64,000 bases of DNA from a virus. A program made the position numbers and the translations under genes. Shown here one piece after another: positions 8,279 to 21,219 of the stretch. Location of the stretch: IMG/VR virus record IMGVR_UViG_3300044624_001994, positions 5,772 to 69,771 of that record; one strand, 5' to 3'. Position 1 is the first letter of the stretch. Every line of letters begins with the position of its first letter. The notes below the pieces were generated by a model. The model had not been told where the DNA came from. It saw nothing but the letters and a program-made list of their open reading frames with translations, and ran no database searches.

Positions 8279-10021
8279 CTAATGTCTTTCAGGGTACAAC
8301 ATTTTACCTAATACATTATTGTCTTGCTGCTCTTCCAACTGCAATACCCATTCGGTCAAATACAATTGCTTCGCAACACTCGCTGCATTCTTGACAGCAC
8401 TGATGACAACATCAGCAGGGTCTATAATGCCCTTGTCAATGAAATTAACATTTTCACCCTTACCCGGCAACACCCCATCAAAAAATTCAGTTTCGTCTAA
8501 AGAAATATCAATGTTTATATCTACTGCTTCAGGCTTAACAAACAAATTCTCATTGACCTTACAATAAACAACACTCAAACTTTCAACCAAAGCATTATAC
8601 CCCATAGCGTAATCGTATGTGTGCGAATCTTCGTCATGCTTAAATCCATCACGCAATGACTGCATGCCCTTTAGATAAGCTATTCCAGCACCTGGAACAA
8701 TACCACCTTTTAATGAAGCAAAACAGGCCCTCTGCACATCATCAATAACCATCTTGCGGTAATTTAACTCAATGTCACTATCTCCACCTACATAGATAGT
8801 ACCCATACCACTTACCAATCTTGATACCCGGTCACGATACATATCCCTTTCACCCTCAAACTCACTATCTTCAATTGACTGCTTTAACTTTTCTACCAAC
8901 GTATTCACAGCAGTACGCAAGCTAATCTCAATCTCAATATCATCAACAAAATCATTCTTTACATCGCTCGGTACAATAATGCACTTGTCCTTCTTCAGTA
9001 CAAACTTATCACAAACACCAAACTCCAACTTCTCCATGTAATCCAACCCTTTTCCAAAGCGGTCAAATACATTGCCAGTAATGTGTGAGAACACCTGCCT
9101 TGCACCAGTCAATACCTTCATGTCCTGCATATAGTCATATCGCATACCACCAAACGCCGGGGCCTTAACTACTAACACAGGCGCACCATTCTTCGCATTC
9201 AATGTCAATGTACTTAATGCACTCCCCTCTATATCACTTACAATCAAAACCAACGGCCTTTGTTTGCCATTTTCAATACATTGCTGCTTCCAAATAGTCA
9301 TTATCGGCTGAATTTCATCCCAATCGCTAATCTTAATGTCAGCTAACAGCACATAAGGATTAACAAGCTCTATCATTCCACTACCAGCCGACAAAAACTG
9401 CTTAAAAGGAATTGTGTGGAACACATAGCCATCAACCTTCTCAACCCACGTTTCTGGACCATTGCTGTCCTTAACCTCAATAATGCCATTCTCACCAACA
9501 CTTGTAACCAAATCACTTACCATACAACCAAGTTCACGATCGCCATTGGCACTAACAATAGCTACATTCTCTAATCGGTCCATAATGATACGACCATTAA
9601 CAACCATCAATCCCCTCTTATTCAAAATAAACTGCTTGAAATCTTCAACAGCAGTTTCAATGCCCCTGCATATTTCAAACTTGTTCACTCCCTCATAATC
9701 ACACAACGAATTTAATAACTTGTAAAGCTGATTAAACAACAATACCGTACTTGTCGTACCATCACCTACTTCCTTTACAGTCTTGCCAGCAGCATCAATA
9801 GCCATCATGGCCATCATATTGTGCAGCTTATTCTTCAAATTCAAATACCTCGCAACAGTAACACCATCCTTTGTACTCATTACACCATTAGGCGTATGTA
9901 TAGCAACTGTCCTTCCCCCAGGCCCCATCGTACTACACACAATGTCACATACATCTTGTAAGGAACTTAACATCTTTTTCTTAATGTCATCCGCATGAAT
10001 TGCATCCGTTAAATACTTCAT
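8279..10021 (-). CDS. groEL: Phage-encoded GroEL-like chaperonin
   Basis: STMGPGGRTV, TKDGVTVA, VGDGTTS, SANGD, KAPAFG, GGIVPGAG and GIIDP motifs. Confidence 0.93.
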   Translation of the reverse strand: MKYLTDAIHADDIKKKMLSSLQDVCDIVCSTMGPGGRTVAIHTPNGVMSTKDGVTVARYLNLKNKLHNMMAMMAIDAAGKTVKEVGDGTTSTVLLFNQLYKLLNSLCDYEGVNKFEICRGIETAVEDFKQFILNKRGLMVVNGRIIMDRLENVAIVSANGDRELGCMVSDLVTSVGENGIIEVKDSNGPETWVEKVDGYVFHTIPFKQFLSAGSGMIELVNPYVLLADIKISDWDEIQPIMTIWKQQCIENGKQRPLVLIVSDIEGSALSTLTLNAKNGAPVLVVKAPAFGGMRYDYMQDMKVLTGARQVFSHITGNVFDRFGKGLDYMEKLEFGVCDKFVLKKDKCIIVPSDVKNDFVDDIEIEISLRTAVNTLVEKLKQSIEDSEFEGERDMYRDRVSRLVSGMGTIYVGGDSDIELNYRKMVIDDVQRACFASLKGGIVPGAGIAYLKGMQSLRDGFKHDEDSHTYDYAMGYNALVESLSVVYCKVNENLFVKPEAVDINIDISLDETEFFDGVLPGKGENVNFIDKGIIDPADVVISAVKNAASVAKQLYLTEWVLQLEEQQDNNVLGKMLYPERH

Positions 10022-10328: not shown

Positions 10329-10679
10329 CTAATTGTAAATTTTTTGAATTACTGAATCTATTTCTTTAAAATTTGTCTGCAAATGAACCTGATAACCACT
10401 GCCTATATGTACCTGATACAAAACATTAAAATCCATCTCACCCTTGTCATACAACCATACCATCCTAAACTGAATACTGCCATCCTCTTTCTTAATAGCA
10501 TTGGACAACGTACTTAACCTCTCCATCTCCCACTCATTAACTCCTACAACCAACACAATCCTATCCCGGTAGTCAATGTGCTTTATCTTATGTAAGTTCA
10601 TATAAAGTATAGCATGCCTCACAATACCGCCAGTATGCCCAATGAAATTATCTATAAAATCTTCATCCAATCGCATCAT
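10329..10679 (-). CDS. Hypothetical protein
   Basis: 116 aa in the operon. Confidence 0.6.
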   Translation of the reverse strand: MMRLDEDFIDNFIGHTGGIVRHAILYMNLHKIKHIDYRDRIVLVVGVNEWEMERLSTLSNAIKKEDGSIQFRMVWLYDKGEMDFNVLYQVHIGSGYQVHLQTNFKEIDSVIQKIYN

Positions 10680-10912
10680 TTTTTATTATACTTCGATACC
10701 GGTTCAACATGTAATCCAAAATAAGGCTGAACATTAAAATGCATAAACAACGTGCATATCGTACTCCACTTAGGGTCCACCATTCCATACTCAATCTTCT
10801 TAATCGTCAAAAATGATATGCCAGTAGCTTCCGCTAACTTCCTTCTCGAAAGTTTGTGTGCAGTCCTTATCATTCTTAACGAAATCCCAATAGTAATCGC
10901 ATCTTCAGCCAT
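10676..10912 (-). CDS. XRE/Cro-family helix-turn-helix regulator
   Basis: LRMIRTAHKLSRRKLAEATGISFLTIKKIEYGMVDPKWSTI is a typical HTH_3 pattern. Confidence 0.85.
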   Translation of the reverse strand: MAEDAITIGISLRMIRTAHKLSRRKLAEATGISFLTIKKIEYGMVDPKWSTICTLFMHFNVQPYFGLHVEPVSKYNKK

Positions 10913-11090: not shown

Positions 11091-11150
11091 AGCGGGGGGG
11101 CGGTCGGCGGCTCGGCGAATCGGTTTTTTACCCCACCCCCCCCAAATTCC
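11091..11150. other. GC-rich G-run/C-run element at the strand-divergence point (candidate packaging/terminus site)
   Basis: GCGGGGGGGCGGTCGGCGGCTCGGCG...CCCCACCCCCCCC in an otherwise AT-rich genome, non-coding, between divergent operons. Confidence 0.35.
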
Positions 11151-11422
11151 AGCCAAAACCTAAACCCAAATGCCCAAATGCTTTATTCATGGTCATTTGC
11201 TCCCTTGAATCCTCATTTTCCTATAATTTGCATTATGTTAAATAGAATCTGAAATGCCCATCAGCACTACGTTTCAGCGTTTGTTGTATATTATAGGGAA
11301 AAAATGTATTATATATACCGGTCAATTATCGTTCTGCTTCCTTCCATCTTGCTTTTTTTGTTCGTTCTGTTCATCCAGTCAGTTTTTTGTCTGTTCGTGA
11401 AGGATTTTTATTTGTTGCGTGG

Positions 11423-11430
11423 TATCTTTG
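11423..11430 (+). promoter_or_regulatory. Candidate -7 promoter element
   Basis: TATCTTTG (TAnnTTTG) 60 nt upstream of ORF 11491; no correctly spaced -33 element seen. Confidence 0.4.
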
Positions 11431-11490
11431 GCGAAATAAAACCACACACACAAAAAAGATCTTTTTAACTTTTTTATTTTTTCTCCCTGC

Positions 11491-11841
11491 ATGAACTTAC
11501 AAAAACTCTTAATTTGTTTAAATACCTCTGCCTTAAATGTGGCTAATTTTCATTCTTTGCCCTTAGGAGCAATTTATTTGCTTATCTTGATACAAGATAA
11601 GGATAACGCAGAAAAAACGCTTAAGACGCTTATTTTAGAGGTTGAGCAGCTAACAAACGCACACAGCTCAAAAATTGCAGCCGAAAGGCTTATAAATGAT
11701 AACTACATTGTAAGCCATAACACAAAATTTTTAATTGGTTCTTCCTTCAATAGGTTTTATTCTTTATCTGCCTTAGGTCGGGAAGTTCTTATATCATTAC
11801 AGATTGAAACAGACAAGCAGTTAAAAAGTGTTAAATTTTAG
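11491..11841 (+). CDS. Putative winged-helix (MarR-like) DNA-binding protein
   Basis: 116 aa; AAERLINDNYIV...RFYSLSALGREVL resembles a wHTH wing and terminal helix. Confidence 0.45.
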   Translation: MNLQKLLICLNTSALNVANFHSLPLGAIYLLILIQDKDNAEKTLKTLILEVEQLTNAHSSKIAAERLINDNYIVSHNTKFLIGSSFNRFYSLSALGREVLISLQIETDKQLKSVKF

Positions 11842-12122
11842 CCTTTTTTCTGTGTATTCAATAAATCTTTAAATTATTGAAAAATATTTTTTTTGACTGA
11901 AATGTAGTTCCAGCCTATGTTTCAGTCTTTTTTTGCTTGTTTCTTAGTGTATGGTTATAAAAAAAAGTTAGCTAAATATTTTTTTATTCAAATCTTTTTT
12001 CTGAATCTTTGTATGTCCTCAAGCGGAGGGCATGGATTGAAAATGTGCATATACGCAGTTCTCGTTGAACAACAGATGGCTTTTGCGTACATGGTGTAGT
12101 GGTTCTTTGACTTTGTGGGCTT

Positions 12123-12200
12123 CCTTATTTGTTGCAATTGTGCAATAGGGCAAATTTACAGAAAGGCGTAAAACGTCGGGTTCGATTCCCGAAATAAGGA
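12123..12200 (+). ncRNA. tRNA-like cloverleaf element (non-canonical)
   Basis: Acceptor stem CCTTATT/AATAAGG, arm TTGCA-ATTG-TGCAA, arm TTTAC-AGAAAGGC-GTAAA, canonical T-arm TCGGG-TTCGATT-CCCGA. Lacks a D-loop GG, a 7-nt anticodon loop and CCA. Confidence 0.55.
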
Positions 12201-12235
12201 CTATTTATTTATTCATCTTTTTAAAACTTACTACC

Positions 12236-12424
12236 ATGTTACAAAAAAAGTATTTTGCTAATCTATCAGTATTGAACGATAGAGTTTATTCTTACAACAC
12301 TTTCGTAGCTGAAATTTGCCACGAAACACAAGAGGTTAAAAGGCTGGGTTTTTGGTCAGTTACCACCAGCAAACATATAAATTATGTTGCTTCCTTGCTT
12401 AGATACAAAGTTGTTAACGCTTAA
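12236..12424 (+). CDS. Small hypothetical phage early protein
   Basis: 62 aa, VYSYNTFVAEI..WSVTTSKHINY; starts 35 nt after the tRNA-like element. Confidence 0.7.
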   Translation: MLQKKYFANLSVLNDRVYSYNTFVAEICHETQEVKRLGFWSVTTSKHINYVASLLRYKVVNA

Positions 12425-12439
12425 ATAAATTTTACTGCT

Positions 12440-12526
12440 ATGTTTATTTACATTCTTTATTATTCGGTCTGTGTTATTATGCTTATTACTTGCTTTGTTG
12501 GGTTTTACTATGCTGACAAAAAATAA
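12440..12526 (+). CDS. 28-aa hydrophobic peptide
   Basis: Manual translation MFIYILYYSVCVIMLITCFVGFYYADKK*; its TAA overlaps repeat copy 1. Confidence 0.55.
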   Translation: MFIYILYYSVCVIMLITCFVGFYYADKK

Positions 12527-12568
12527 CGGAACTTGGAGCATGGGCGGAATCGTTTTCCGCCTTCCGTT
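12525..12568 (+). repeat. Structured intergenic repeat copy 1 (type A)
   Basis: AACGGAA-CTTGGAGCATG-GGCGGAA-TCGTT-TTCCGCC-TTCCGTT. Confidence 0.97.
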
Positions 12569-12607
12569 CAAAACTTATTTATTTATTCATCTTAAAACTT
12601 AATTTTT

Positions 12608-12823
12608 ATGAAAATTATAATTGAAGACCAAACACTTTTTGGATTCCAAACTTGGGCAGGAGCAACAGAAACAAAAAATGCTATTTTAAAAGCTGATAAA
12701 GGGCATCACTTTGAACTTTTAATTGAGGAATTATACCCCGAAGGTTTAACAGATGTTCAATTAAACGACATTTTATGGCATGAGTGGGATTATATTTTCG
12801 AACAACTTGGTATAACTGAATAA
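12608..12823 (+). CDS. Small acidic hypothetical protein
   Basis: 71 aa, FQTWAGA..LTDVQLNDILW; lies between repeats 1 and 2. Confidence 0.75.
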   Translation: MKIIIEDQTLFGFQTWAGATETKNAILKADKGHHFELLIEELYPEGLTDVQLNDILWHEWDYIFEQLGITE

Positions 12824-12866
12824 ACGGAACTTGGAGCATGGGCGGAATCGTTTTCCGCCTTCCGTT
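12823..12866 (+). repeat. Structured intergenic repeat copy 2 (type A)
   Basis: Core identical to copy 1. Confidence 0.97.
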
Positions 12867-12902
12867 CAAAACTTATTTTTTCACTTTTTAATCTTAAATT
12901 TT

Positions 12903-13055
12903 ATGGAACTTTTATCTGTCATGTTAATCTCTTATTTCTGTCTGTTTTTGGTGTTTGCTTATACAGAAAGACACACCATTATTAAAAACCTATCAGATAG
13001 CAAAAAACGCTATTGGGATAGAAACAATTTCCAAGACTACAATAACTTTTTTTAA
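12903..13055 (+). CDS. Small membrane protein (50 aa)
   Basis: MELLSVMLISYFCLFLVFAY...; start moved to ATG 12903, 36 nt after the repeat. Confidence 0.55.
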   Translation: MELLSVMLISYFCLFLVFAYTERHTIIKNLSDSKKRYWDRNNFQDYNNFF

Positions 13056-13077
13056 CGCTCGCTTAAAACCTTATAAA

Positions 13078-13281
13078 ATGAAAACTTCAGAGTTAAAACA
13101 GAATTATTCAATATTTGGCAATAAAGGTACTGTTTGGTCAAATACTGCACACATTTATAAATCGGGTCAAGGTTTACTTTGTGGCACTCCTGCACTATCA
13201 ACTAATTGGGCAGCCATTGAAAAATTAGAAGAAATCGGATGTAAAGAATGTTTGGCTAAATACAAAGACGAACAAAAATAA
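13078..13281 (+). CDS. Small protein with His/Cys (possible zinc-binding) motif
   Basis: MKTSELKQ..AHIY..LLCG..GCKECLAKY; stop abuts repeat 3. Confidence 0.65.
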   Translation: MKTSELKQNYSIFGNKGTVWSNTAHIYKSGQGLLCGTPALSTNWAAIEKLEEIGCKECLAKYKDEQK

Positions 13282-13324
13282 ACGGAACTTGGAGCATGGG
13301 CGGAATCGTTTTCCGCCTTCCGTT
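13281..13324 (+). repeat. Structured intergenic repeat copy 3 (type A)
   Basis: Core identical to copy 1. Confidence 0.97.
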
Positions 13325-13360
13325 CAAAACTTATTTATTCATTCTTAAAATCTCAATTTT

Positions 13361-13672
13361 ATGAGCAGTTTAAAATTAGATAGTGTTTCAATGGTGATGT
13401 TAGATGTTAGCAAAATTCACCCTTTTATTCTTGACTTTATGGTAGGTCAAGCCGAATTTATTGACAATTCGGGAACATTAAACGAGAGTATATATTTTGC
13501 ATCATTTTTTGCCGATTTTCAGACCATATTTATTCCATTGTGGGATTCTGTTGCGACTGAATATAAAGATGGCTCAGAAACCCAATTAAAAGCCTTAGAA
13601 GCCATTAAACAATGGTATGAACTTGAAGTAATTTGTAAAAACTACTTTTATTGTATTTTAACGGGACAATAA
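13361..13672 (+). CDS. Hypothetical protein
   Basis: 103 aa between repeats 3 and 4. Confidence 0.7.
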   Translation: MSSLKLDSVSMVMLDVSKIHPFILDFMVGQAEFIDNSGTLNESIYFASFFADFQTIFIPLWDSVATEYKDGSETQLKALEAIKQWYELEVICKNYFYCILTGQ

Positions 13673-13715
13673 CGGAACTATGGAGCATGGGCGGAATCGT
13701 TTTCCGCCTTCCGTT
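13671..13715 (+). repeat. Structured intergenic repeat copy 4 (type A, +1 nt in linker)
   Basis: AACGGAA-CTATGGAGCATG-GGCGGAA-TCGTT-TTCCGCC-TTCCGTT. Confidence 0.97.
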
Positions 13716-13751
13716 CAAAACTTATTTTTTCATTCTTAAATTTTTAATCTC

Positions 13752-14039
13752 ATGTCATTACAGAAATTAAACTTTGCCAAATTAGAAGAATTTGAACCTA
13801 CAATTTACCATGAATTTGTAAATAGTCAAGGCAAACAAATTCGATTCGTTGAACATCCATTTGATGGTGATGAATACCCAATTATCATTATGTTTATGGA
13901 AGATAGAAAAGCATTCAATTCGGAATTTTACGATTTAGACGATATGCTTGCCGACCATAAAGATTACGAACCTATGTTAGTAATTGATTCAGAAGGTAAA
14001 AAACAATGTGTTTTCGGTTATGAACTAAAACTATATTAA
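13752..14039 (+). CDS. Acidic hypothetical protein
   Basis: 95 aa between repeats 4 and 5. Confidence 0.75.
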   Translation: MSLQKLNFAKLEEFEPTIYHEFVNSQGKQIRFVEHPFDGDEYPIIIMFMEDRKAFNSEFYDLDDMLADHKDYEPMLVIDSEGKKQCVFGYELKLY

Positions 14040-14082
14040 ACGGAACTTGGAGCATGGGGAGAATCGTTTTCTCCCTTCCGTT
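14039..14082 (+). repeat. Structured intergenic repeat copy 5 (type B)
   Basis: AACGGAA-CTTGGAGCATG-GGGAGAA-TCGTT-TTCTCCC-TTCCGTT. Confidence 0.97.
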
Positions 14083-14118
14083 CAAAACTTTATTTATTCA
14101 TTCTTAAAACTTAATACC

Positions 14119-14403
14119 ATGCAAAAAGCAAAAGTATTTTTGAACGTAACGGAAACCAATTTTGGCAAATTTCCAACACTACCAAACAATCAAAAAGTGA
14201 ACAGAGATACAATTGTTTACTATGCTTCAAAAGTTACTGATAAAGGAAAGGAAAGTATTTTTTTCTTGATAAGGCATAAAGATGCAAAGCTATTAAAAGA
14301 TAATAATTTTGACATTCAGTCAATTTTAGTTCCTGCTGGCTTCTATCCAGCTGCAATAAGTTACAAGTATAACGATACAAGACTTGAAATAAACTTTATT
14401 TAA
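14119..14403 (+). CDS. Hypothetical protein
   Basis: MQKAKVFLN...; start moved to ATG 14119, 36 nt after the repeat. Confidence 0.7.
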   Translation: MQKAKVFLNVTETNFGKFPTLPNNQKVNRDTIVYYASKVTDKGKESIFFLIRHKDAKLLKDNNFDIQSILVPAGFYPAAISYKYNDTRLEINFI

Positions 14404-14424
14404 AACTCACAAAATTTCGATTCT

Positions 14425-14727
14425 ATGAACTTAAACCACCATTTCTGGACAATCAATAAGCAATTCGTTTTAGATGTCTTAAAATACGAACTTGGAAGCG
14501 ATGTGACAATAATTGATGCATCTTATCGGAATGACGAATGCCCGAGTTTTGAAATTTCATATCAAGGCAAAGAAGGTAAATTATATTTGCCATCTCATTA
14601 TGAAGGTGAATTTAGCAATTATATGTTTTTCGAAGAAAAGGAATTTGAAAACATGGATGACATTAAATATTATTGTAGCTCAAATTTGGGTGAAATATTA
14701 CAATGCATCAATAATCACATTTTCTAA
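14425..14727 (+). CDS. Hypothetical protein
   Basis: 100 aa with DASYRNDECPSF motif. Confidence 0.7.
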   Translation: MNLNHHFWTINKQFVLDVLKYELGSDVTIIDASYRNDECPSFEISYQGKEGKLYLPSHYEGEFSNYMFFEEKEFENMDDIKYYCSSNLGEILQCINNHIF

Positions 14728-14744
14728 TTTTAAAACTTATTACA

Positions 14745-14942
14745 ATGCAAAAAGCTATCAAATTACTTGCAAAAGTAAAGACTAAAAGCAATTTCAGACA
14801 ATTGAATGATACCTACCTACCAATAGATGAAATGCAGGAAAGCAGGGTAACTTGCTTAGTCTATGACCATGACTACAAAAAGTACATTAAAGTAGATTTT
14901 CATCTCACAGAAGTAACAGATTTTAAAACAATTCAAAATTAA
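14745..14942 (+). CDS. Hypothetical protein
   Basis: 65 aa in the operon. Confidence 0.65.
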   Translation: MQKAIKLLAKVKTKSNFRQLNDTYLPIDEMQESRVTCLVYDHDYKKYIKVDFHLTEVTDFKTIQN

Positions 14943-14948
14943 CCTACC

Positions 14949-15122
14949 ATGACACACCAGCACGTCTTTTTAAAGACTTTATTTGCAAAGGTAATAGAAC
15001 CTACCAACAAAGGAGTAAAAGTTCTTACAATGGATAAAAAAGGATTCACAAAGACTGAAAAAACAGGCAAGATCCAGTTTTTTAGTACAGACGAATGGAA
15101 AACATTATTTAAAGCAATTTAA
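14949..15122 (+). CDS. Hypothetical protein (57 aa)
   Basis: Manual translation MTHQHVFLKTLFAKVIEPTNKGVKV...WKTLFKAI*; fills the gap between neighbours. Confidence 0.6.
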   Translation: MTHQHVFLKTLFAKVIEPTNKGVKVLTMDKKGFTKTEKTGKIQFFSTDEWKTLFKAI

Positions 15123-15133
15123 ACTCCTATTTT

Positions 15134-15373
15134 ATGACAGCAGCAGAAATTAGAACCAACACAAAAAACATGACTTTTGAACAAGCATGTGATTATATTC
15201 AAAGCATAGGTCTTGAACTGATTCCTTCAGAAAACCATCCTTTTCTGAAAAGTTGGGAAGTTAAAAACCATAAGGAATTTAGTCGAATCTCAAGTTATAT
15301 GGAATACGAACTGAAAGGCGCAAAACTTGTAAAAAGGAAAGCAGATGTATTGTTTTGTTTTCATGAATTTTAA
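15134..15373 (+). CDS. Hypothetical protein
   Basis: 79 aa; stop abuts repeat 6. Confidence 0.7.
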   Translation: MTAAEIRTNTKNMTFEQACDYIQSIGLELIPSENHPFLKSWEVKNHKEFSRISSYMEYELKGAKLVKRKADVLFCFHEF

Positions 15374-15416
15374 CGGAACTTGGAGCATTGGGGAGAATCG
15401 TTTTCTCCCTTCCGTT
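15372..15416 (+). repeat. Structured intergenic repeat copy 6 (type B)
   Basis: Linker CTTGGAGCATTG; type B stem. Confidence 0.97.
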
Positions 15417-15447
15417 CAAACTTATTTTTTAACCTGCTGACGATGAT

Positions 15448-15476
15448 TCGGTGACGATAATAGTTAGCAAAATTTT
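15448..15476 (+). repeat. Second repeat family, copy 1
   Basis: TCGGTGACGATAATAGTTAGCAAAATTTT, also at 19393 and (23-nt core) at 19426. Confidence 0.9.
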
Positions 15477-15484
15477 AATGCCTT

Positions 15485-16024
15485 ATGGAAAATTTAGAAT
15501 TATTGATTGGCAAAACTGCTGCTAAAAAAATCTTTGATAACAATGTCAATGTGATGCAATGCAGCGAGGATTCTATTCAGTATTTAATTGGGAAAAAAGC
15601 GGCTGCAAAGATAAGTGCTGCAAAGCAATTGTTTGTCGCTAAGGAAGAATCTGAAACGATAAGAAGCAGCAAGAATATTGCAGATATTTTTCGGGAATTA
15701 AAGTTTTTGGATATAGAACAAATGCACGTTTTATGTTTGAACAGAACTAACAAAGTAATAAGCAAGTTTATGCTGTCAAGTGGAGGTAGGTCGGCAACTT
15801 TATGCGATATGGCAGTATTGTATAAAAGAATATTACTTAGTAATGCCAGCGCATTTTGTGTAGTACACAACCATCCATCGGGCAACAATGCACCTTCGCA
15901 AATGGATATAGAATTGACTAAGAAAATATATCAAGCATCTTTAATTCTTGACTTAAAACTTCTTGACCATGTAATTATAGCTGGAGATGATTATTACAGT
16001 TTTTGTGACAATGGACATTTATAA
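15485..16024 (+). CDS. radC: RadC-family JAB/MPN domain protein
   Basis: EQMHVLCLN..N..VHNHPSGNNAPSQMD..LLDHVII JAMM motif. Confidence 0.92.
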   Translation: MENLELLIGKTAAKKIFDNNVNVMQCSEDSIQYLIGKKAAAKISAAKQLFVAKEESETIRSSKNIADIFRELKFLDIEQMHVLCLNRTNKVISKFMLSSGGRSATLCDMAVLYKRILLSNASAFCVVHNHPSGNNAPSQMDIELTKKIYQASLILDLKLLDHVIIAGDDYYSFCDNGHL

Positions 16025-16066
16025 CGGAACTTGGAGCATGGGGAGAATCGTTTTCTCCCTTCCGTT
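16023..16066 (+). repeat. Structured intergenic repeat copy 7 (type B)
   Basis: Core identical to copy 5. Confidence 0.97.
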
Positions 16067-16094
16067 CAAAACTTATTTTTTCACTTAATTTTTA

Positions 16095-16349
16095 ATGCTT
16101 ATGAACTATCAAAAAATGTATGAGGAATTGCTCGCTGAATTTGAGCAGTACAAAAGAGAATCTGTAAAATGGTCTGTGGATGACTTTTTAACTTACAATG
16201 ATATTTATGCCGACAAAGGTCTTTATATCACAATAGGCAGAGCAAAAAAAGCCTTAGAACACATGATTAAATCACATGATTCCGAATATGGAATTTCTTG
16301 GAGTAGTGTTGATTGTTTTTTCAATTTGTATGCTTTAAAATCTGAATAA
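16095..16349 (+). CDS. Hypothetical protein
   Basis: 84 aa, WSVDDF..HDSEYGISW. Confidence 0.7.
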   Translation: MLMNYQKMYEELLAEFEQYKRESVKWSVDDFLTYNDIYADKGLYITIGRAKKALEHMIKSHDSEYGISWSSVDCFFNLYALKSE

Positions 16350-16351
16350 CT

Positions 16352-16525
16352 ATGATGTTTTATTTTTTGATCTTGATAGGCATAGTTAAGCCACAAGACG
16401 ATGAATTGTATGCTTTTTTTACTCCCGATGGCAAAGTATATGAATACTGCTATAAGGAAGAAATTATTGAAGCAATAAAGACTGGGCAATTCTGCTATAA
16501 TGAAGATTTGCATTTAAACAAATAA
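16352..16525 (+). CDS. Hypothetical protein (57 aa)
   Basis: Manual translation MMFYFLILIGIVKPQDDELYAFFTPDGKVYEYCYKEEII...LHLNK*; stop overlaps repeat 8. Confidence 0.6.
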   Translation: MMFYFLILIGIVKPQDDELYAFFTPDGKVYEYCYKEEIIEAIKTGQFCYNEDLHLNK

Positions 16526-16568
16526 CGGAACTATGGAGCAAGGGGAGAATCGTTTTCTCCCTTCCGTT
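16524..16568 (+). repeat. Structured intergenic repeat copy 8 (type B)
   Basis: Linker CTATGGAGCAAG; type B stem. Confidence 0.97.
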
Positions 16569-16603
16569 CAAACTTATTTTTTCACTTTTTAATACTTAAA
16601 TTT

Positions 16604-17131
16604 ATGTTCGAAATTAAAGCAAAAATAGGCAATATTGACTTGTCAATGTTTGACCTTAAACAACTAACAGACAATGCTAATTCTTCTGCTGAAGCATTAC
16701 AGAAACACAATGATGATGTGTATTGTAAATTTCAAGAATTCGTTTTAGATTTTATCGAAAAAACAAATTCAGTTTTAGCTAAAATTGGATTAGACGAGAG
16801 ATTTATAAATACAAATTACCATATTAGAGAAAATTATATATGTTCACGTTCTAATGGTCTTTATTGTAAATATGATATTGGTCATGGAAGGGCATCAATC
16901 TATCTTTATTTTGAAACCGACAAAATAAGTGATAAATTAACTTATGATTTTAAAGGTCAAATAATAATAAGAAAAAGCTGGAATAATAATTTTATAAGAG
17001 AAGAATATGACTTAGAATCAGTAGGTCAGGTTTTTGAACTTGGAGCAGATGTTATTAAATTTTTTATAATTGATAGAGATGTTACTGATAATGATGCAAG
17101 ACGGAAATTAGAAAAGGAATTGACCTACTAA
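16604..17131 (+). CDS. Hypothetical protein
   Basis: 175 aa between repeats 8 and 9. Confidence 0.75.
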   Translation: MFEIKAKIGNIDLSMFDLKQLTDNANSSAEALQKHNDDVYCKFQEFVLDFIEKTNSVLAKIGLDERFINTNYHIRENYICSRSNGLYCKYDIGHGRASIYLYFETDKISDKLTYDFKGQIIIRKSWNNNFIREEYDLESVGQVFELGADVIKFFIIDRDVTDNDARRKLEKELTY

Positions 17132-17175
17132 ACGGAACTATGGAGCATGGGGAGAATCGTTTTCTCCCTTCCGTT
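17131..17175 (+). repeat. Structured intergenic repeat copy 9 (type B)
   Basis: Linker CTATGGAGCATG; type B stem. Confidence 0.97.
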
Positions 17176-17211
17176 CAAACTTATTTTTTCACTTTTTTAA
17201 TCTTTAATTTT

Positions 17212-17748
17212 ATGGCAAATATGTGTTATAACTATGTTGTGTTCAGCGGTGAACCAGCAAACATTGAAAAACTCAATCAAAGGATTGATGAAGCTATTGA
17301 AACTGAAAAAAGGACTCAATTAGCACAACAGATTCATAGTCACGAAGAAATTATTGATAGGCATTTTTTTGATTTAAGCAAAGACATGACTGATGAAACA
17401 GAACTGAATATCATGTATGACACAAAATGGGATAGCAATATCTTAGATGTTGCCAAAATTTGTGTTGAATTTGGAGTAACAGCTAATCATGAATTCAGTG
17501 AAACATCTTCTTACATCTATGGAAGCTGTTCTATTGATGAAAAAGGTAATGTCATTGAAGATACTGCACCAGCTGAATTTTGTGATTTGATTGATTATGA
17601 CGAAGAAAAAGATGTTTATATCTACAATGGCGATGAATGGACTTTTCAAGATGAAATTTTTGAATGGGAATATGAAAGATGGAAAGCAAAGCAACCCGAA
17701 CAATATTGGTTAAAGACTTATAATCTTAATGATTTTATAAACAAATAA
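17212..17748 (+). CDS. DUF1281/YubB-like ferredoxin-fold protein
   Basis: MANMCYNYVVFSG N-terminus and YDTKW motif resemble this family; start moved to ATG 17212. Confidence 0.55.
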   Translation: MANMCYNYVVFSGEPANIEKLNQRIDEAIETEKRTQLAQQIHSHEEIIDRHFFDLSKDMTDETELNIMYDTKWDSNILDVAKICVEFGVTANHEFSETSSYIYGSCSIDEKGNVIEDTAPAEFCDLIDYDEEKDVYIYNGDEWTFQDEIFEWEYERWKAKQPEQYWLKTYNLNDFINK

Positions 17749-17791
17749 CGGAACTATGGAGCAAGGGGAGAATCGTTTTCTCCCTTCCGTT
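17747..17791 (+). repeat. Structured intergenic repeat copy 10 (type B)
   Basis: Core identical to copy 8. Confidence 0.97.
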
Positions 17792-17824
17792 CTAACTTAT
17801 TTTTTAATTTTAATACTTAATTAC

Positions 17825-18943
17825 ATGAAAATTCAAATCGTAAAAGCAGAATTGCTTGAAGCAATCAAGACAGTTATCAAAATTGTTCCTTCTAAAGCAA
17901 TTATCCCCGACATTGAAAACATTTGTTTGCAGGGTAAAAATGGTATTGTTACCATCTCCGGTACTGACCTCACTACTTTTGTAAAGTACACATTGAATCA
18001 GAAATCTTACTTTGAAGGTAATTTTGAATTTCTGATTGATGCAGCAAAATTTGACAAAATTGCTTCTCTGTGCGATAATTATGTTGAAATGGAGGTAATG
18101 GGTGACAAGTGCAAAATAACTACCTTACAAGGTAATACAACGCTTCCTATATATGAAGCAAGTTGTTTTCCCGATAAGAAAGAAATAGGAGATAAAATAG
18201 CTGATTTTAGCGAAAAGCAAAATGTCTTTTTTCACATCAAAAAAGCTATTGGCTATGTAAGTACAGATGAATTGAGAATAAATATGTGCGGAGTTCATCT
18301 TGATATTGTTGATAATACCTTGTCAGTACAAGCAACAAACGCAAATATTCTTTATCTACATGATACAGAATGCGTCAGTAAAACCAACACAAGTGTTATT
18401 ATTCCTGCAAAGACTTGCAAGATCTTGACAAGTTTAGAAAATGATGATTTTTCTCTTTATCAAATATCTGGAACTGAATATAGATTCCAATATCAAACGA
18501 TTGACATATACTTTACTGCAACAGATGCAAAATACCCACAAGTAAGAAGCATTATTCCAAAGCAAAGTGACCATATCAATGTATTCAGTTTTAAGAAACA
18601 AGATATTATTAAGACGATAAGTGCAGTAATGATAACTGCCAATATTCAAACAAACGGAATCCAATTCTATGTTGGTGATGAAACAGCTAAAATCAAATCT
18701 GTTGACCTTGATAATAACATGGAAAGTGAAATGGAGCTGAAAGTTAGTATTGACAAAAAAGTTGATGATGTCTTTAAATTTGCTGTCAATGGTAAGTTTA
18801 TTACAGATGTTATAAACAGCATAAATTTGCCAAATTCGGAACAAATTACTTTTTACATGAGAGAGTTAAACAAGGCATTGTTATTCTATACAGATGACTT
18901 TAAAACGCTTCACATAGTAATGCCAATCGTATTTAATGACTAA
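17825..18943 (+). CDS. dnaN: DNA polymerase III beta subunit (sliding clamp) homolog
   Basis: 372 aa from MKIQIVKAELLEAI; GTDL, STDELRINMCGV, ATN, IIPAK, KYPQVRSIIP, VNGKFI and C-terminal IVMPI match the clamp pattern. Confidence 0.9.
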   Translation: MKIQIVKAELLEAIKTVIKIVPSKAIIPDIENICLQGKNGIVTISGTDLTTFVKYTLNQKSYFEGNFEFLIDAAKFDKIASLCDNYVEMEVMGDKCKITTLQGNTTLPIYEASCFPDKKEIGDKIADFSEKQNVFFHIKKAIGYVSTDELRINMCGVHLDIVDNTLSVQATNANILYLHDTECVSKTNTSVIIPAKTCKILTSLENDDFSLYQISGTEYRFQYQTIDIYFTATDAKYPQVRSIIPKQSDHINVFSFKKQDIIKTISAVMITANIQTNGIQFYVGDETAKIKSVDLDNNMESEMELKVSIDKKVDDVFKFAVNGKFITDVINSINLPNSEQITFYMRELNKALLFYTDDFKTLHIVMPIVFND

Positions 18944-18960
18944 CAACTTATTTATTCATG

Positions 18961-18987
18961 GGGCAGTATTTTGCTGCCCTATTTTTT
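18961..18987 (+). terminator. Hairpin / probable intrinsic terminator
   Basis: GGGCAG-TATTTTG-CTGCCC followed by TATTTTTT. Confidence 0.55.
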
Positions 18988-19007
18988 AATCCTTAATACT
19001 TAATATT

Positions 19008-19391
19008 ATGAAATTTGAAATTGTAAACCTGCAAAATGCAGATGTGCGTAAGAATCGCAAAGAAAACCACTTTTATAAGGAAGATGCAGTTATGACTATT
19101 ATTGATGGTAGAATACAATGCAAGTTTATTGTAAGGTACTATGCAACAAGCAAAACACACTACTGCTGTATATGGCTGACATTACCTAAAACAGCATATA
19201 TCCATAGTTCTGGCTGGGCTGGTGGTTATGGCTATCATAGGGAATCTGCTGCCTTAAATGATGCACTAAAGAATTGTGGCATTGAATTTTATAACTTAGC
19301 TGGTACTGGGCAAGGAGAAGAAGCATTGAAGATGTTGTTTAAGCATTTTTACCCCGATTTGACCTGCATGATTCATACTGCCCATGCGTAA
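19008..19391 (+). CDS. Hypothetical phage protein
   Basis: 127 aa with GWAGGYGYHRESAAL motif. Confidence 0.75.
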   Translation: MKFEIVNLQNADVRKNRKENHFYKEDAVMTIIDGRIQCKFIVRYYATSKTHYCCIWLTLPKTAYIHSSGWAGGYGYHRESAALNDALKNCGIEFYNLAGTGQGEEALKMLFKHFYPDLTCMIHTAHA

Positions 19392-19392
19392 C

Positions 19393-19448
19393 TCGGTGAC
19401 GATAATAGTTAGCAAAATTTTTAGTTCGGTGACGATAATAGTTAGCAA
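19393..19448 (+). repeat. Second repeat family, tandem copies 2 and 3 (33-nt period)
   Basis: TCGGTGACGATAATAGTTAGCAA at 19393 and 19426. Confidence 0.9.
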
Positions 19449-19465
19449 TTTTTTGCATCCGAACA

Positions 19466-19699
19466 TTGACTGACTATGATAAATGGCTTCATTGCCGGCA
19501 TCCCAATACGATAGTTTTTATCAAAACAGATGCCGGCATTTTAACATTTGATGACGATGCAATAAAAGTAGGAAAAGCAATTTCAAGAATTGTTAAAAAC
19601 GATATGTTGCTGATACCGGAAAATGTTAAACATTTGGAGATGTCACATCTTAGTAGGCTTGGTTACAATGTGAAAGAAATAATTTACTGCTGTGTATAA
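19466..19699 (+). CDS. Hypothetical protein, weakly MutS-N-terminal-like
   Basis: 77 aa, TTG start; HPNTIVFIK..TFDDDAIKVGK. Confidence 0.4.
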   Translation: MTDYDKWLHCRHPNTIVFIKTDAGILTFDDDAIKVGKAISRIVKNDMLLIPENVKHLEMSHLSRLGYNVKEIIYCCV

Positions 19700-19705
19700 A
19701 AACAC

Positions 19706-19739
19706 AAAGGGCACATGACTATTCATGTGCCCTTTTTTT
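19706..19739. terminator. Bidirectional intrinsic terminator between convergent operons
   Basis: AAAGGGCACATGA-CTAT-TCATGTGCCCTTT followed by a T tract. Confidence 0.85.
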
Positions 19740-21041: not shown

Positions 21042-21219
21042 ATTCTACAAATTGTTCCCACGTTTTTTTTCTCATGTGCTTTGTGTAATCCTTTCGAATA
21101 AAAGCATCTTTTACTGGATGGTAAACATATTCATGTTTGTTTATTTTAATGCCACCAAAACGAACACCAAGGCTTATGTATGGCTGTTGTGATGCATTAA
21201 ATATTATGATTGCTTCCAT
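21001..21219 (-). CDS. Hypothetical protein
   Basis: 72 aa in the operon. Confidence 0.6.
   Translation of the reverse strand: MEAIIIFNASQQPYISLGVRFGGIKINKHEYVYHPVKDAFIRKDYTKHMRKKTWEQFVEFAKQQENENTDKP

What the first reader, a model, noticed from the sequence alone, without database searches (positions are those of the whole stretch)
12525..12568. The repeat may be a minimal tRNA mimic (tRNA-punctuation hypothesis)
The repeat can be drawn as a 7-bp outer stem stacked directly on a 6-bp arm with a 7-nt loop ATCGTTT, like a tRNA acceptor stem plus T-arm. That loop matches the T-loop TTCGATT at 5 of 7 positions, with the 54/58 pair reversed. The unpaired linker holds an invariant TGG reminiscent of D-loop G18-G19. 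Established: RNase P and RNase Z recognise acceptor/T-arm domains, and mitochondrial transcripts are cut at punctuating tRNAs. Inference: host tRNA-processing enzymes may cut this early transcript into gene units or release small decoy RNAs. RNase III-type processing, as in the T7 early region, is an alternative.
Basis: inference. Interest (0 to 1): 0.75.

Follow-up and report, generated by a model that had tools for sequence, protein, structure and literature searches.

The report
Repeated hairpin cassettes between phage genes
A freshwater phage separates ten small genes with near-identical 80-base spacers, each holding a bulged RNA hairpin and a T-rich leader; they look like portable gene-expression and gene-shuffling cassettes, and their likeness to tRNA is not shown.

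Summary
The 44-nt element at 12525-12568 is one of exactly 10 same-strand copies (12525-17791). Each starts inside the TAA stop of one small gene. Each is followed by a conserved T-rich box 28-30 nt before the next ATG (63 in c6, which carries an insertion). All 14 proposed pairs hold, and two inner-stem pairs changed on both sides.

The tRNA-specific claims fail where tested:
- The Rfam tRNA model finds nothing in either stem type.
- The T-loop 54/58 pair and the G53-C61 pair are absent.
- The stack is 13-14 bp with a likely pentaloop.
- Cutting at the stem base would remove part of every stop codon.

The context is still suggestive. A near-threshold tRNA-like element (12123-12200, perfect T-arm, aberrant anticodon arm) heads the array and carries the same leader. 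The phage's CCA-less tRNA-Met is followed by the same T-box.

Strain variants gain, lose or replace genes with breakpoints at the repeats. Linker and stem variants show all four combinations among copies.

Best reading (0.45): a PeSL-like composite intergenic cassette, read as RNA, that also acts as a recombination site in a Bacteroidota podophage. tRNA-enzyme punctuation remains a live rival (0.18). No RNA data exist and no homologues were found elsewhere.

The parts
12524..12607 (+). Cassette c1 (the finding): TAA, bulged hairpin 12525-12568 (type I inner stem), T-box at 12579, leader, up to the ATG at 12608
12821..12902 (+). Cassette c2: hairpin 12823-12866 (type I), leader to ATG 12903
13279..13360 (+). 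Cassette c3: hairpin 13281-13324 (type I), leader to ATG 13361
13670..13751 (+). Cassette c4: hairpin 13671-13715 (type I, 12-nt linker), leader to ATG 13752
14037..14118 (+). Cassette c5: hairpin 14039-14082 (type II inner stem), leader to ATG 14119
15371..15484 (+). Cassette c6: hairpin 15372-15416 (type II, extra T in the linker); the leader is lengthened by an insertion that contains a 29-nt repeat also found at 19393 and 19426; ATG 15485
16022..16094 (+). Cassette c7: hairpin 16023-16066 (type II), leader to ATG 16095
16523..16603 (+). Cassette c8: hairpin 16524-16568 (type II, 12-nt linker), leader to ATG 16604
17129..17211 (+). Cassette c9: hairpin 17131-17175 (type II, 12-nt linker), leader to ATG 17212
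17746..17824 (+). Cassette c10: hairpin 17747-17791 (type II, 12-nt linker), leader to ATG 17825 (sliding clamp gene)
12123..12235 (+). Head unit: tRNA-like element 12123-12200 (7-bp acceptor stem, T-arm 12176-12192 matching GGTTCRANYCC, aberrant anticodon arm), followed by a leader of the same family up to ATG 12236
18944..19007 (+). Tail unit: T-box at 18948, then a canonical terminator hairpin 18958-18982 whose 3' end plus T-run again forms the T-box 28 nt before ATG 19008
11254..19735 (+). The + strand block of about 21 small, mostly family-less genes that holds all cassettes. It lies between a divergent HTH gene with its control region and a bidirectional terminator at 19706-19735

Best explanation
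The 44-nt element is the structured half of an intergenic cassette of about 80 nt. The cassette fills, base for base, the space between the stop codon of one small gene and the start codon of the next. It does so ten times in the + strand block of ORFan-type genes of a phage of about 70 kb, probably one that infects Flavobacteriales.

It is read on the mRNA strand. A 7-bp inner helix is stacked on a 6-7-bp outer helix, with an 11-12-nt bulge on the 5' side. This hairpin marks, insulates or stabilises the end of the upstream message.

A conserved T-rich box at a fixed 28-30 nt from the ATG starts or conditions the downstream message, either as a promoter-like element or as a defined 5' UTR.

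Because about 66 nt are nearly identical in all copies, the copies exchange sequence with one another. They also serve as crossover points at which gene cassettes are gained, lost or replaced. This is how the PeSL promoter/stem-loop cassettes of T4-like phages work.

Shown: the anatomy, base pairing, orientation, fixed spacing, exchange among copies, and strain breakpoints at the repeats. Inferred: that the hairpin acts in RNA, that it forms or protects 3' ends, and that the T-box is a promoter or UTR signal. The enzyme that reads the hairpin is unknown.
For: - Extent. Identity begins at the TAA in 10 of 10 copies. In 9 of them this is the stop of the upstream gene; c1's TAA ends a 33-codon open frame that continues the frame of gene 12236-12424 after its stop. 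The cassette ends at the ATG, and the distance from stem end to ATG is 28-39 nt in 9 of 10 copies and 68 in c6.
- Pairing. 14 of 14 pairs are always standard and 2 pairs are compensatory. The covariation score was reached by 0 of 500 shuffles.
- Orientation. All 10 copies lie on the coding strand and only in the small-gene block.
- No duplication. The 19 flanking genes compared are unrelated, with a best blastp E of 0.019, so the repeats are not by-products of gene duplication. 6 of the 10 largest block genes scanned match no Pfam or PHROG family.
- T-box. The 11-nt T-box with at most 1 mismatch occurs 26 times in the genome, 15 of them in this block. It starts 28-31 nt before the ATG in 10 of the 11 units made up of c1-c10 and the tRNA-like unit; the exception is c6 at 63 nt. 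In c7 this counts from the second ATG (22 nt to the first). The box that follows tRNA-Met differs by one missing T and is therefore not among the 26.
- Same box in other units. The same box follows three other kinds of 3' structure: the tRNA-like element, tRNA-Met, and the terminator at 18958-18982.
- Spacing of host-type boxes. Canonical Bacteroidota -7 boxes lie 28, 33 and 46 nt before three minus-strand genes. In F. psychrophilum the box lies at -12 to -5 and the median 5' UTR is 24 nt (PMC9723704, passages).
- Exchange among copies. Stem type (I or II) and linker length (11 or 12 nt) occur in all four combinations. Between strains, c1 gains and c8 loses the linker A.
- Strain breakpoints. 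One contig joins 15112 to 15371, so gene 15134-15373 is missing and the junction lies at the start of c6. Another replaces 16267-16347 by 409 nt. Contigs about 5-6% diverged end inside the repeats.
- Precedent. PeSLs run from stop codon to ATG, combine a promoter and a stem-loop, flank ORFans and mediate shuffling (PMC2839356, passages; PMC4122927, abstract).
Against: - No RNA data exist, so no 5' or 3' end, promoter activity or termination is shown (one search listed no RNA holder).
- The T-box lacks the conserved G of the Bacteroidota -7 box in every unit, and no -33 element is present. The full -33/-7 pattern is not enriched in the window: 4 found against 6.6 expected.
- The hairpin is not a canonical terminator. 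Its T-run starts 6-7 nt after the stem, whereas three canonical terminators in the same block have the T-run abutting the stem.
- A plain stabiliser or attenuator hairpin does not explain the invariant 7-nt linker core or the invariant loop.
- In a 181-nt context the outer stem is not part of the MFE fold.
- A ribosome terminating at the overlapping stop codon would melt the outer stem. This is an inference.
- The breakpoints come from assembled contigs of metagenomes. Repeats break assemblies, so some joints with short sides may be artefacts.
- No relatives with the element were found, so all the covariation comes from one genome and amounts to one or two events.
Confidence: 0.45

Rival explanations
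1. Minimal tRNA mimic. Host RNase P and/or RNase Z recognise the stacked outer and inner helices as an acceptor/T-arm domain. They cut the polycistronic transcript at each cassette, freeing gene-sized mRNAs and a small RNA of about 45 nt.
For: - The topology matches an acceptor stem plus T-arm joined by a linker.
- A tRNA-like element with an intact acceptor stem and T-arm but an unusable anticodon arm (8-nt loop without U33) sits at the head of the array, in front of the same leader. Its leader matches c1's at 30 of 40 aligned columns.
- In strain variants its two T-loop changes fall on positions 57 (G to A) and 59, which the T-loop consensus allows.
- tRNA-Met has no encoded CCA. It lies 7 nt after a hairpin and 28 nt before the next ATG, so it must be cut out of a longer transcript, and it is followed by the same T-box.
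- The RNase Z family rings in Bacteroides thetaiotaomicron among the control genomes.
- The inner arm and the T-arm of the tRNA-like element agree at 11 of 17 positions when aligned by structure (my own count, made post hoc).
- t-elements and even simple acceptor-like stem-loops are proposed RNase P/Z signals (PMC1920247, passages).
Against: - The Rfam tRNA model gives no hit at E<=10 on c1 or c5 (2 of 10 copies tested).
- The repeat model R1 does not hit the tRNA-like element.
- The repeat lacks the GGTTCRANYCC motif that defines t-elements.
- U54-A58 is reversed and G53-C61 is replaced by A-U, which can simply extend the stem and leave a pentaloop.
- The stack is 13-14 bp.
- The 3' flank is not discriminator-CCA-like.
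- A cut at the stem base removes 1-2 nt of the stop codon in 10 of 10 copies. In bacteria that makes non-stop mRNA.
- The loop match is weak statistically: P 0.02 to 0.12.
Confidence: 0.18
2. Binding site for a sequence-specific phage or host protein. On RNA this would be a translational or stability regulator of all the block's genes. On DNA it would be a repeated operator or roadblock at gene ends, like mycobacteriophage stoperators. The stems present the invariant linker and loop to the protein.
For: - The invariant 7-nt linker core and the 9-nt loop region, in 10 of 10 copies, are not needed for a plain hairpin.
- Strict orientation and placement at stop codons.
- A small HTH protein is encoded divergently next to the block (10676-10912).
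Against: - The two compensatory pairs argue for a nucleic-acid helix and against a duplex-DNA half-site. The type II inner arms do not share the half-site word of the outer arms.
- No RNA-binding protein was identified among the proteins scanned. Not every ORF was scanned.
- Invariance may merely reflect recent homogenisation by exchange between copies.
Confidence: 0.15
3. Leaky intrinsic terminator or attenuator only. The hairpin plus the distal T-run sets a polarity gradient along the block, and the T-box is merely its U-tract.
For: - A GC-rich hairpin is followed by a T-run.
- The tail unit uses a canonical terminator whose T-run coincides with the T-box.
- PeSL stem-loops terminate efficiently (PMC2839356, passages).
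Against: - The T-run starts 6-7 nt after the stem, and the consensus scan did not call any copy, while it called three true terminators nearby.
- A U-tract has no reason to sit at a fixed 28-30 nt from the next ATG.
- This reading does not explain the bulge or the invariant linker.
Confidence: 0.1
4. An RNase III or other double-strand or structure-specific endonuclease site, as between the T7 early genes. The remaining hairpin would protect the upstream mRNA.
For: - Intercistronic position in a same-strand block of small genes.
- An irregular hairpin with an asymmetric interruption.
Against: - There are only 14 bp in all, split 7+7 by a one-sided 11-12-nt bulge. From recall, T7 sites have about two helical turns.
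- There is no evidence for cleavage.
Confidence: 0.06
5. A selfish miniature mobile element, or an integron-attC-like recombination site folded as single-stranded DNA, that spreads between genes.
For: - The array of same-orientation ORFan cassettes, each followed by an imperfect inverted repeat with extrahelical bases, looks like a chromosomal integron (resemblance recalled).
- Cassette content varies between strains.
Against: - The genome has no tyrosine recombinase. PF00589 gave 0 matches while the control rang in 14 of 14 genomes.
- The 3' end does not fit the attC core GTTRRRY (recalled consensus).
- No copies exist outside this block or in any other record searched.
- There are no target-site duplications; the units abut the stop and start codons exactly.
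Confidence: 0.04

Closest known systems
PeSL (promoter-early stem-loop) cassettes of T4-like myoviruses (Arbiol et al. 2010, PMC2839356; Comeau et al. 2014, PMC4122927)
   Same: [quoted passage not shown]
- A stem-loop plus an AT-rich expression signal.
- Many near-identical copies flanking small ORFan genes in a plastic region.
- Insertions, deletions and replacements between close relatives with breakpoints in the element.
   Different: - The phage lineage and host phylum differ: a podophage of Bacteroidota with no Shine-Dalgarno sequences.
- The stem-loop comes first and is a two-tier helix with an invariant 11-12-nt bulge, not a polyG/polyC hairpin inside or next to a sigma-70 promoter.
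- No canonical host promoter could be recognised in it.
- Promoter and terminator activity, shown for PeSLs, are untested here.
t-elements of plant mitochondria and tRNA punctuation of mitochondrial transcripts (Forner et al. 2007, PMC1920247)
   Same: - Structured, tRNA-shaped RNA between coding regions is proposed to be cut by RNase P and RNase Z to make mRNA ends.
- The element at 12123-12200 meets the t-element definition: a T-arm matching GGTTCRANYCC and a non-canonical cloverleaf.
- The stop codons here overlap the element, as at some mitochondrial junctions.
   Different: - The ten repeats themselves lack the T-arm motif and score nothing with the tRNA model.
- As far as I recall, bacteria are not known to complete truncated stop codons by polyadenylation.
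- No ends have been mapped.
RNase III processing sites between the early genes of phage T7 (recalled, not read here)
   Same: Intercistronic irregular hairpins in an early polycistronic transcript; after cutting, the hairpin protects the upstream mRNA.
   Different: The T7 sites are longer (about two helical turns) with an internal loop. Here there are 14 bp with a one-sided bulge, and the sequence is nearly identical in all copies.
Stoperators and start-associated sequences of mycobacteriophages (recalled, not read here)
   Same: Many oriented copies of a short conserved sequence placed at gene ends or in front of start codons.
   Different: Those are 13-17-bp protein-binding or translation-linked words without a helix kept by compensatory change.

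Membership tests
tRNA / tRNA-like structure (Rfam RF00005) | Scores with the tRNA covariance model | tested here: not met
   No tRNA hit at E<=10 in 86-nt windows around c1 and c5 (2 of 10 copies, one per stem type). The same kind of search gives 27.9 bits (threshold 29) for 12123-12200.
tRNA / tRNA-like structure (Rfam RF00005) | T-loop: U54-A58 reverse-Hoogsteen pair, closing pair G53-C61, 7-nt loop TTCRANY | tested here: not met
   Positions 54 and 58 are A and U (reversed), and the closing pair is A-U. The fold programme pairs them and leaves a 5-nt loop. 4 of the 6 constrained positions are met; chance P is 0.12.
tRNA / tRNA-like structure (Rfam RF00005) | 5' acceptor strand, intervening segment, T hairpin, then the 3' acceptor strand directly abutting; a 12-bp coaxial stack | tested here: inconclusive
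   The topology is met. The stack is 13-14 bp, not 12. From recall, 13 bp occurs in tRNA-Sec.
tRNA / tRNA-like structure (Rfam RF00005) | D-loop G18-G19 contacting the T-loop | not testable with these tools
   The invariant GG lies in the linker. A tertiary contact cannot be computed here.
Plant-mitochondrial t-element | GGTTCRANYCC T-arm motif in a non-canonical cloverleaf | tested here: not met
   Absent from all 10 repeats (alignment). Present at 12179-12189 within the tRNA-like element. The definition comes from PMC1920247 passages.
Plant-mitochondrial t-element | mRNA ends coincide with the ends of the element | not testable with these tools
   No RNA run was listed.
PeSL cassette | Spans the gap from stop codon to ATG; many copies flank ORFans in a plastic region | tested here: met
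PeSL cassette | Contains a stem-loop | tested here: met
PeSL cassette | Contains a host-consensus early promoter | tested here: inconclusive
   The T-box resembles the phage's own canonical -7 boxes and sits at the same distance from the ATG. It lacks the conserved G and has no -33 element. Activity is untested.
PeSL cassette | Breakpoints of indels or replacements between close relatives lie in the element | tested here: met
   Junction 15112 to 15371 at the start of c6. Contigs of 5-6% diverged strains end in the repeats. Linker alleles swap between strains. This is contig-level evidence only.
PeSL cassette | Sequence homology to PeSLs, or occurrence in T4-like myoviruses | tested here: not met
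   This is a different phage. Its terminase is nearest to Flavobacterium and Cellulophaga podophages at 25% identity, and a crAss muzzle domain is present. It is therefore an analogue, not a member.
Intrinsic terminator | GC-rich hairpin immediately followed by a T-run | tested here: not met
   None of the 10 copies was called, while three canonical sites in the block were. The T-run starts 6-7 nt after the stem.
Integron attC site | Tyrosine recombinase (IntI) in the element | tested here: not met
   PF00589 gave 0 matches in the genome, while the control rang in 14 of 14 genomes.
N4-type hairpin promoter for a virion RNA polymerase | The phage encodes a virion or own RNA polymerase | tested here: inconclusive
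   No PF00940 match, but that control was silent. No DFDxD motif in six frames. No Sigma70_r2 match, with the control ringing in 10 of 14 genomes. The N-terminal 1700 aa of the 5092-aa protein match nothing.

The most novel reading that the evidence does not exclude
The phage punctuates its small-gene transcript with a graded series of tRNA-derived processing signals. The series runs from a real tRNA (tRNA-Met), through a tRNA-like element that kept only the acceptor/T-arm domain (12123-12200), to ten copies of a 44-nt minimal version. All are followed by the same T-rich trailer and are cut by host RNase P and/or RNase Z. That would be a bacterial-virus counterpart of mitochondrial tRNA punctuation and t-elements, and it would release a family of small RNAs of about 45 nt of unknown use.
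Probability: 0.15. Interest if true: 0.75.

Novelty: new variant of a known kind. Interest (0 to 1): 0.45.

Why it matters
If the main reading holds, portable stop-to-start expression cassettes that double as recombination sites are not a peculiarity of T4-like coliphages and cyanophages. They would also have arisen in an unrelated podophage of Bacteroidota, a phylum with different promoters and no Shine-Dalgarno sequences. That would make them a general way for phages to shuffle accessory genes while keeping them expressed.

The element is also a compact, testable case. It has two helices with natural compensatory variants, an invariant bulge, and a box at fixed distance from the ATG.

If the tRNA-enzyme reading holds instead, it would be, to my knowledge, the first phage example of tRNA-style punctuation by a minimal mimic. 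No literature search was run for that point.

Tried and rejected
- Relatives carrying the element. None were found, so no between-genome covariation could be obtained.
  - Exact or degenerate patterns gave 0 hits in viral contigs and 0 in metagenome contigs.
  - Megablast of 12000-18500 against phages gave no match.
  - The sliding-clamp protein gave no viral locus and only 23-24%-identical metagenome loci.
  - The DnaB protein gave 4 loci at 33-35% identity.
  - Model R1 gave one 12.8-bit hit in 8 loci and 0 hits in the 80 viral loci (1,217,494 bases) that carry the aaRS-like gene.
  - The 5 closest of those loci, and the first 50 kb of Flavobacterium phage elemoA, have no comparable repeat array.
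- Genome contigs. The 2 hits (Peribacillus, Metabacillus) lie in one homologous coding region and have no stems, so they are chance matches.
- RNA evidence. No RNA holder was listed, so nothing can be said on expression. Bins with little contig cover in variant strains (12601-12867, 16606-17139) are not used as evidence.
- Canonical Bacteroidota promoter in the cassette. Rejected as stated above. A minus-strand 8-nt match to the -7 box appears in c6, c8 and c9 only. It amounts to one event and is not significant. The sigma-70 scan was at background, 42 found against 40.9 expected.
- Coding potential of the ATG in the 12-nt linker. The frame is open into the next gene only in c9 and c10. The clamp's Pfam match starts at the later ATG.
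- A partner RNA for the linker or loop. Only chance 7-mers were found.
- Link to the phage's tRNA-synthetase-like gene.
  - It is a stand-alone class IIb catalytic core.
  - It is 55-57% identical to proteins of Weeksellaceae and Moheibacter chromosomes.
  - More than 7,600 homologues were found, and 322 viral stretches encode relatives.
  - Its fold is nearest to AspRS/AsnRS catalytic domains, TMq up to 0.67.
  - From recall, archaeal asparagine synthetases have this form. I dropped a connection to the repeats.
- Own RNA polymerase, sigma factor or integrase. None was found.
- Supplementary files of the papers were not opened. The PeSL alignments and the F. psychrophilum promoter tables in them could bear on the promoter comparison.
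Full report
**What the window is.** The window is bases 5772-69771 of a 69,771-nt IMG/VR virus record. My script found that its last 127 nt repeat its first 127 nt.
- Most genes lie on the minus strand. They include a large terminase, a GroEL-like chaperonin, DnaB, a primase, an amidase endolysin, a 1615-aa protein with a crAss muzzle C-terminal domain, and a 5092-aa polyvalent protein with ddrB-ParB, SNF2 and LPD38 domains.
- The terminase is nearest, at 25% identity, to podophages of Flavobacterium, Cellulophaga and Tenacibaculum.
- An auxiliary tRNA-synthetase-like gene is 55-57% identical to proteins on Weeksellaceae and Moheibacter chromosomes.
- Shine-Dalgarno-like words occur before 1 of 58 gene starts, against 6% of random 17-mers.
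- All 24 sequencing runs listed as holders are lake, freshwater or unspecified metagenomes on record as DNA.
- The host is therefore very probably a freshwater member of the Bacteroidota, likely Flavobacteriales. This is inferred.

**The observation.** The element at 12525-12568 is copy 1 of a family of exactly ten, all on the + strand between 12525 and 17791.
- They lie in the only + strand block of the genome (about 11254-19735). The block holds about 21 small genes.
- Among the ten largest block genes, only a RadC-like JAB protein and a DUF1281_C protein match Pfam, and three more match PHROGs of unknown function. Six match nothing in either library. The sliding clamp was identified separately.
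- The genes are not paralogues; the best mutual blastp E is 0.019.
- Identity between copies begins at the TAA stop of the upstream gene, whose last one or two A's are the first bases of the outer stem. This holds in 10 of 10 copies. In c1 the TAA closes a 33-codon open frame that continues gene 12236-12424 after an earlier stop.
- Identity ends at the next ATG. The whole intergenic gap, 73-84 nt (114 in c6), is therefore the repeat.

**Anatomy.**
- The element has a 7-nt outer 5' strand, then an 11-12-nt linker with an invariant 7-nt core, then a 7-bp inner helix with a 5-nt loop, then the outer 3' strand with no gap.
- A spacer of 6-7 nt follows, then a T-rich box, then about 20 AT-rich bases.
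- All 14 pairs are standard in all 9 distinct rows. Two inner pairs differ on both sides between copies c1-c4 (type I) and c5-c10 (type II). Sliding the partners by 1-3 columns drops pairing to 39-69%.
- This supports a nucleic-acid helix over a protein half-site. It amounts to only one or two evolutionary events in one genome.
- The inner helix is robust. The outer helix is lost in the MFE fold of c10 and of a 181-nt context. It would also be melted by a ribosome terminating on the overlapping stop codon, which is an inference.

**Tests of the tRNA-mimic reading on the repeat itself.**
- ARAGORN finds no tRNA in the window.
- Rfam finds no family at the repeats in the 9-kb block.
- In 86-nt windows with lax filters, the tRNA model gives no hit at E<=10 on c1 or c5.
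The two misses are positions 54 and 58, which make the defining pair, and the G53-C61 closing pair is A-U. Chance probabilities are 0.02 and 0.12.
- The stack is 13-14 bp.
- A cut at the base of the 7-bp stem would truncate the stop codon in every copy.
- The repeat is therefore not a member of the tRNA or t-element families by the features I could test.

**Unexpected context in favour of tRNA-type punctuation.**
- At 12123-12200 there is a 78-nt element that the tRNA model matches end to end at 27.9 bits (threshold 29; E 2.8e-4 in a 151-nt search). It lies just before the first cassette-type gene.
- It has a 7-bp acceptor stem and a perfect T-arm. Its anticodon arm has a weak stem and an 8-nt loop without U33. 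Default ARAGORN misses it.
- It is followed by a leader of the same family as the cassettes. That leader agrees with c1's at 30 of 40 aligned columns, and the first 18 are identical but for one gap.
- In strains about 5% diverged, its four substitutions include two in the T-loop, at positions 57 (G to A) and 59. Both are allowed by the T-loop consensus.
- Outside the window, the phage's only ARAGORN-called tRNA is tRNA-Met (CAT). It has no encoded CCA. It lies 7 nt after a hairpin that lacks a T-run and 28 nt before the next ATG, and it is followed at once by the same T-box. It can hardly have its own promoter, so it must be excised from a longer transcript. This is inferred.
- The RNase Z family rings in Bacteroides thetaiotaomicron among the control genomes.
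- This phage therefore does place tRNA-shaped RNAs where the repeats sit.

**The T-box.**
- The 11-nt box with at most 1 mismatch occurs 26 times in the genome, 15 of them in the block.
- It starts 28-31 nt before the ATG in 10 of the 11 units made up of c1-c10 and the tRNA-like unit. The exception is c6, at 63 nt. In c7 the figure counts from the second ATG; it is 22 nt to the first.
- At 16313 a one-mismatch copy inside a coding region lies 39 nt before ATG 16352.
- After the clamp gene a canonical terminator (18958-18982) replaces the bulged hairpin. Its last bases plus its T-run recreate the box 28 nt before ATG 19008.
- After tRNA-Met a one-base-shorter form of the box begins 27 nt before the ATG.
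- A U-tract has no reason to keep a fixed distance from the next start codon. A promoter or a 5'-UTR signal does.
- Two canonical Bacteroidota -7 boxes elsewhere in this genome differ from the cassette box only in the last base (G instead of T). They lie 28 and 33 nt before their ATGs.
- In F. psychrophilum the box occupies -12 to -5 and the median 5' UTR is 24 nt (PMC9723704, passages).
- Against a promoter: the conserved G is missing in every unit, there is no -33 element, and the full pattern is not enriched.
- The phage shows no sigma-70-type factor, no T7-type polymerase and no crAss-type polymerase motif. The T7-type control was silent.

**Exchange and shuffling.**
- Stem type and linker length occur in all four combinations among the ten copies. 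That needs recombination between copies or recurrent mutation.
- I laid the contigs of four metagenome runs from other samples on the block. They show strains 5-6% diverged in the genes. Their contigs stop inside the repeats.
- In those strains c1 gains and c8 loses the linker A.
- One contig joins 15112 to 15371, so gene 15134-15373 is absent and the junction lies at the first base of c6.
- Another contig replaces 16267-16347 by 409 other letters.
- Short-sided joints between distant cassettes (13740 to 17125, 14112 to 12898) may be assembly artefacts of the repeat.

**Comparison with what is known.** This is the behaviour described for PeSLs. Those are composite promoter/stem-loop elements that run from stop codon to ATG, flank ORFans in the hyperplastic regions of T4-like phages and mediate insertions, deletions and replacements (PMC2839356, passages; PMC4122927, abstract).

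**Verdict.** I rank the PeSL-like composite cassette first (0.45).
- It accounts for the exact stop-to-ATG extent, the orientation, the fixed box spacing, the interchangeable 3' structures (tRNA, tRNA-like element, terminator, bulged hairpin), the mosaic of variants and the strain breakpoints.
- It does not explain the invariant bulge and loop. Those point to a specific reader, either an RNA-processing enzyme (tRNA-type 0.18, RNase III-type 0.06) or a binding protein (0.15).
- A pure attenuator (0.10) and a mobile or attC-like element (0.04) fit worse.
- Nothing like the element was found in Rfam or in any collection searched. A search of the paper library for intergenic stem-loop repeats in Flavobacterium phages listed nothing relevant (listing only).
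- I class it as a new variant of a known kind.

Noticed in passing
window 12123-12200 (+): A tRNA-like element: the Rfam tRNA model scores 27.9 bits against a threshold of 29. It has a 7-bp acceptor stem and a perfect T-arm, but an anticodon arm with an 8-nt loop and no U33. Default ARAGORN misses it. Strain variants change T-loop positions 57 and 59 only.
   Followed up: yes
G000:C1 1440-1512 (minus strand; outside the window): The phage's only called tRNA is tRNA-Met (CAT). It has no encoded CCA and is wedged between a GC hairpin (7 nt upstream) and the next gene's ATG (28 nt downstream). It is followed by the same T-rich box as the cassettes.
   Followed up: partly
window 21219-22076 (-): A stand-alone class IIb aminoacyl-tRNA-synthetase catalytic core (285 aa, Pfam tRNA-synt_2) with no anticodon-binding domain. 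It is 55-57% identical to Weeksellaceae and Moheibacter proteins. Relatives are encoded in 322 viral stretches. The AlphaFold model (pLDDT 75.7) is nearest to AspRS/AsnRS catalytic domains. It may be an asparagine-synthetase-type enzyme (recalled).
   Followed up: partly
window 11093-11135 (+): A GC-rich island with a run of 7 G and a run of 8 C in an otherwise AT-rich divergent control region. It lies between the small HTH gene (10676-10912, minus strand) and the + strand block. The fold energy is no better than shuffles (z 0.11).
   Followed up: partly
window 15448-15476, 19393-19421, 19426-19454 (+): A 29-nt word present three times at 93-100% identity: once as an insertion in the leader of cassette c6, and twice in tandem after gene 19008-19391. 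An 80% relative lies at 13393. Its function is unknown.
   Followed up: no
window 37245-52523 (-): A 5092-aa polyvalent protein with ddrB-ParB, SNF2/ResIII helicase and LPD38 domains. Its N-terminal 1700 aa match nothing in Pfam, PHROGs or PDB sequences and contain internal repeats of about 210 nt (48.0-48.9 kb).
   Followed up: partly
window 12236-12526 (+): Gene 12236-12424 ends at a TAA, after which the same frame stays open for 33 codons up to the TAA of cassette c1. Variant strains carry a 4-nt deletion at 12422. This looks like a recently truncated gene whose original stop was the cassette's.
   Followed up: partly
window 15424, 16576, 17183 (minus strand): In c6, c8 and c9 (the copies with the shorter spacer), the reverse complement of the spacer plus T-box is a perfect 8-nt match to the Bacteroidota -7 box. 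It points antisense into the upstream gene. It is probably chance, since it amounts to one event.
   Followed up: partly
window 8279-10021 (-) and 55190-60037 (-): A phage-encoded GroEL-type chaperonin, also present in Flavobacterium elemoviruses. A 1615-aa virion protein with a crAss muzzle C-terminal domain.
   Followed up: no
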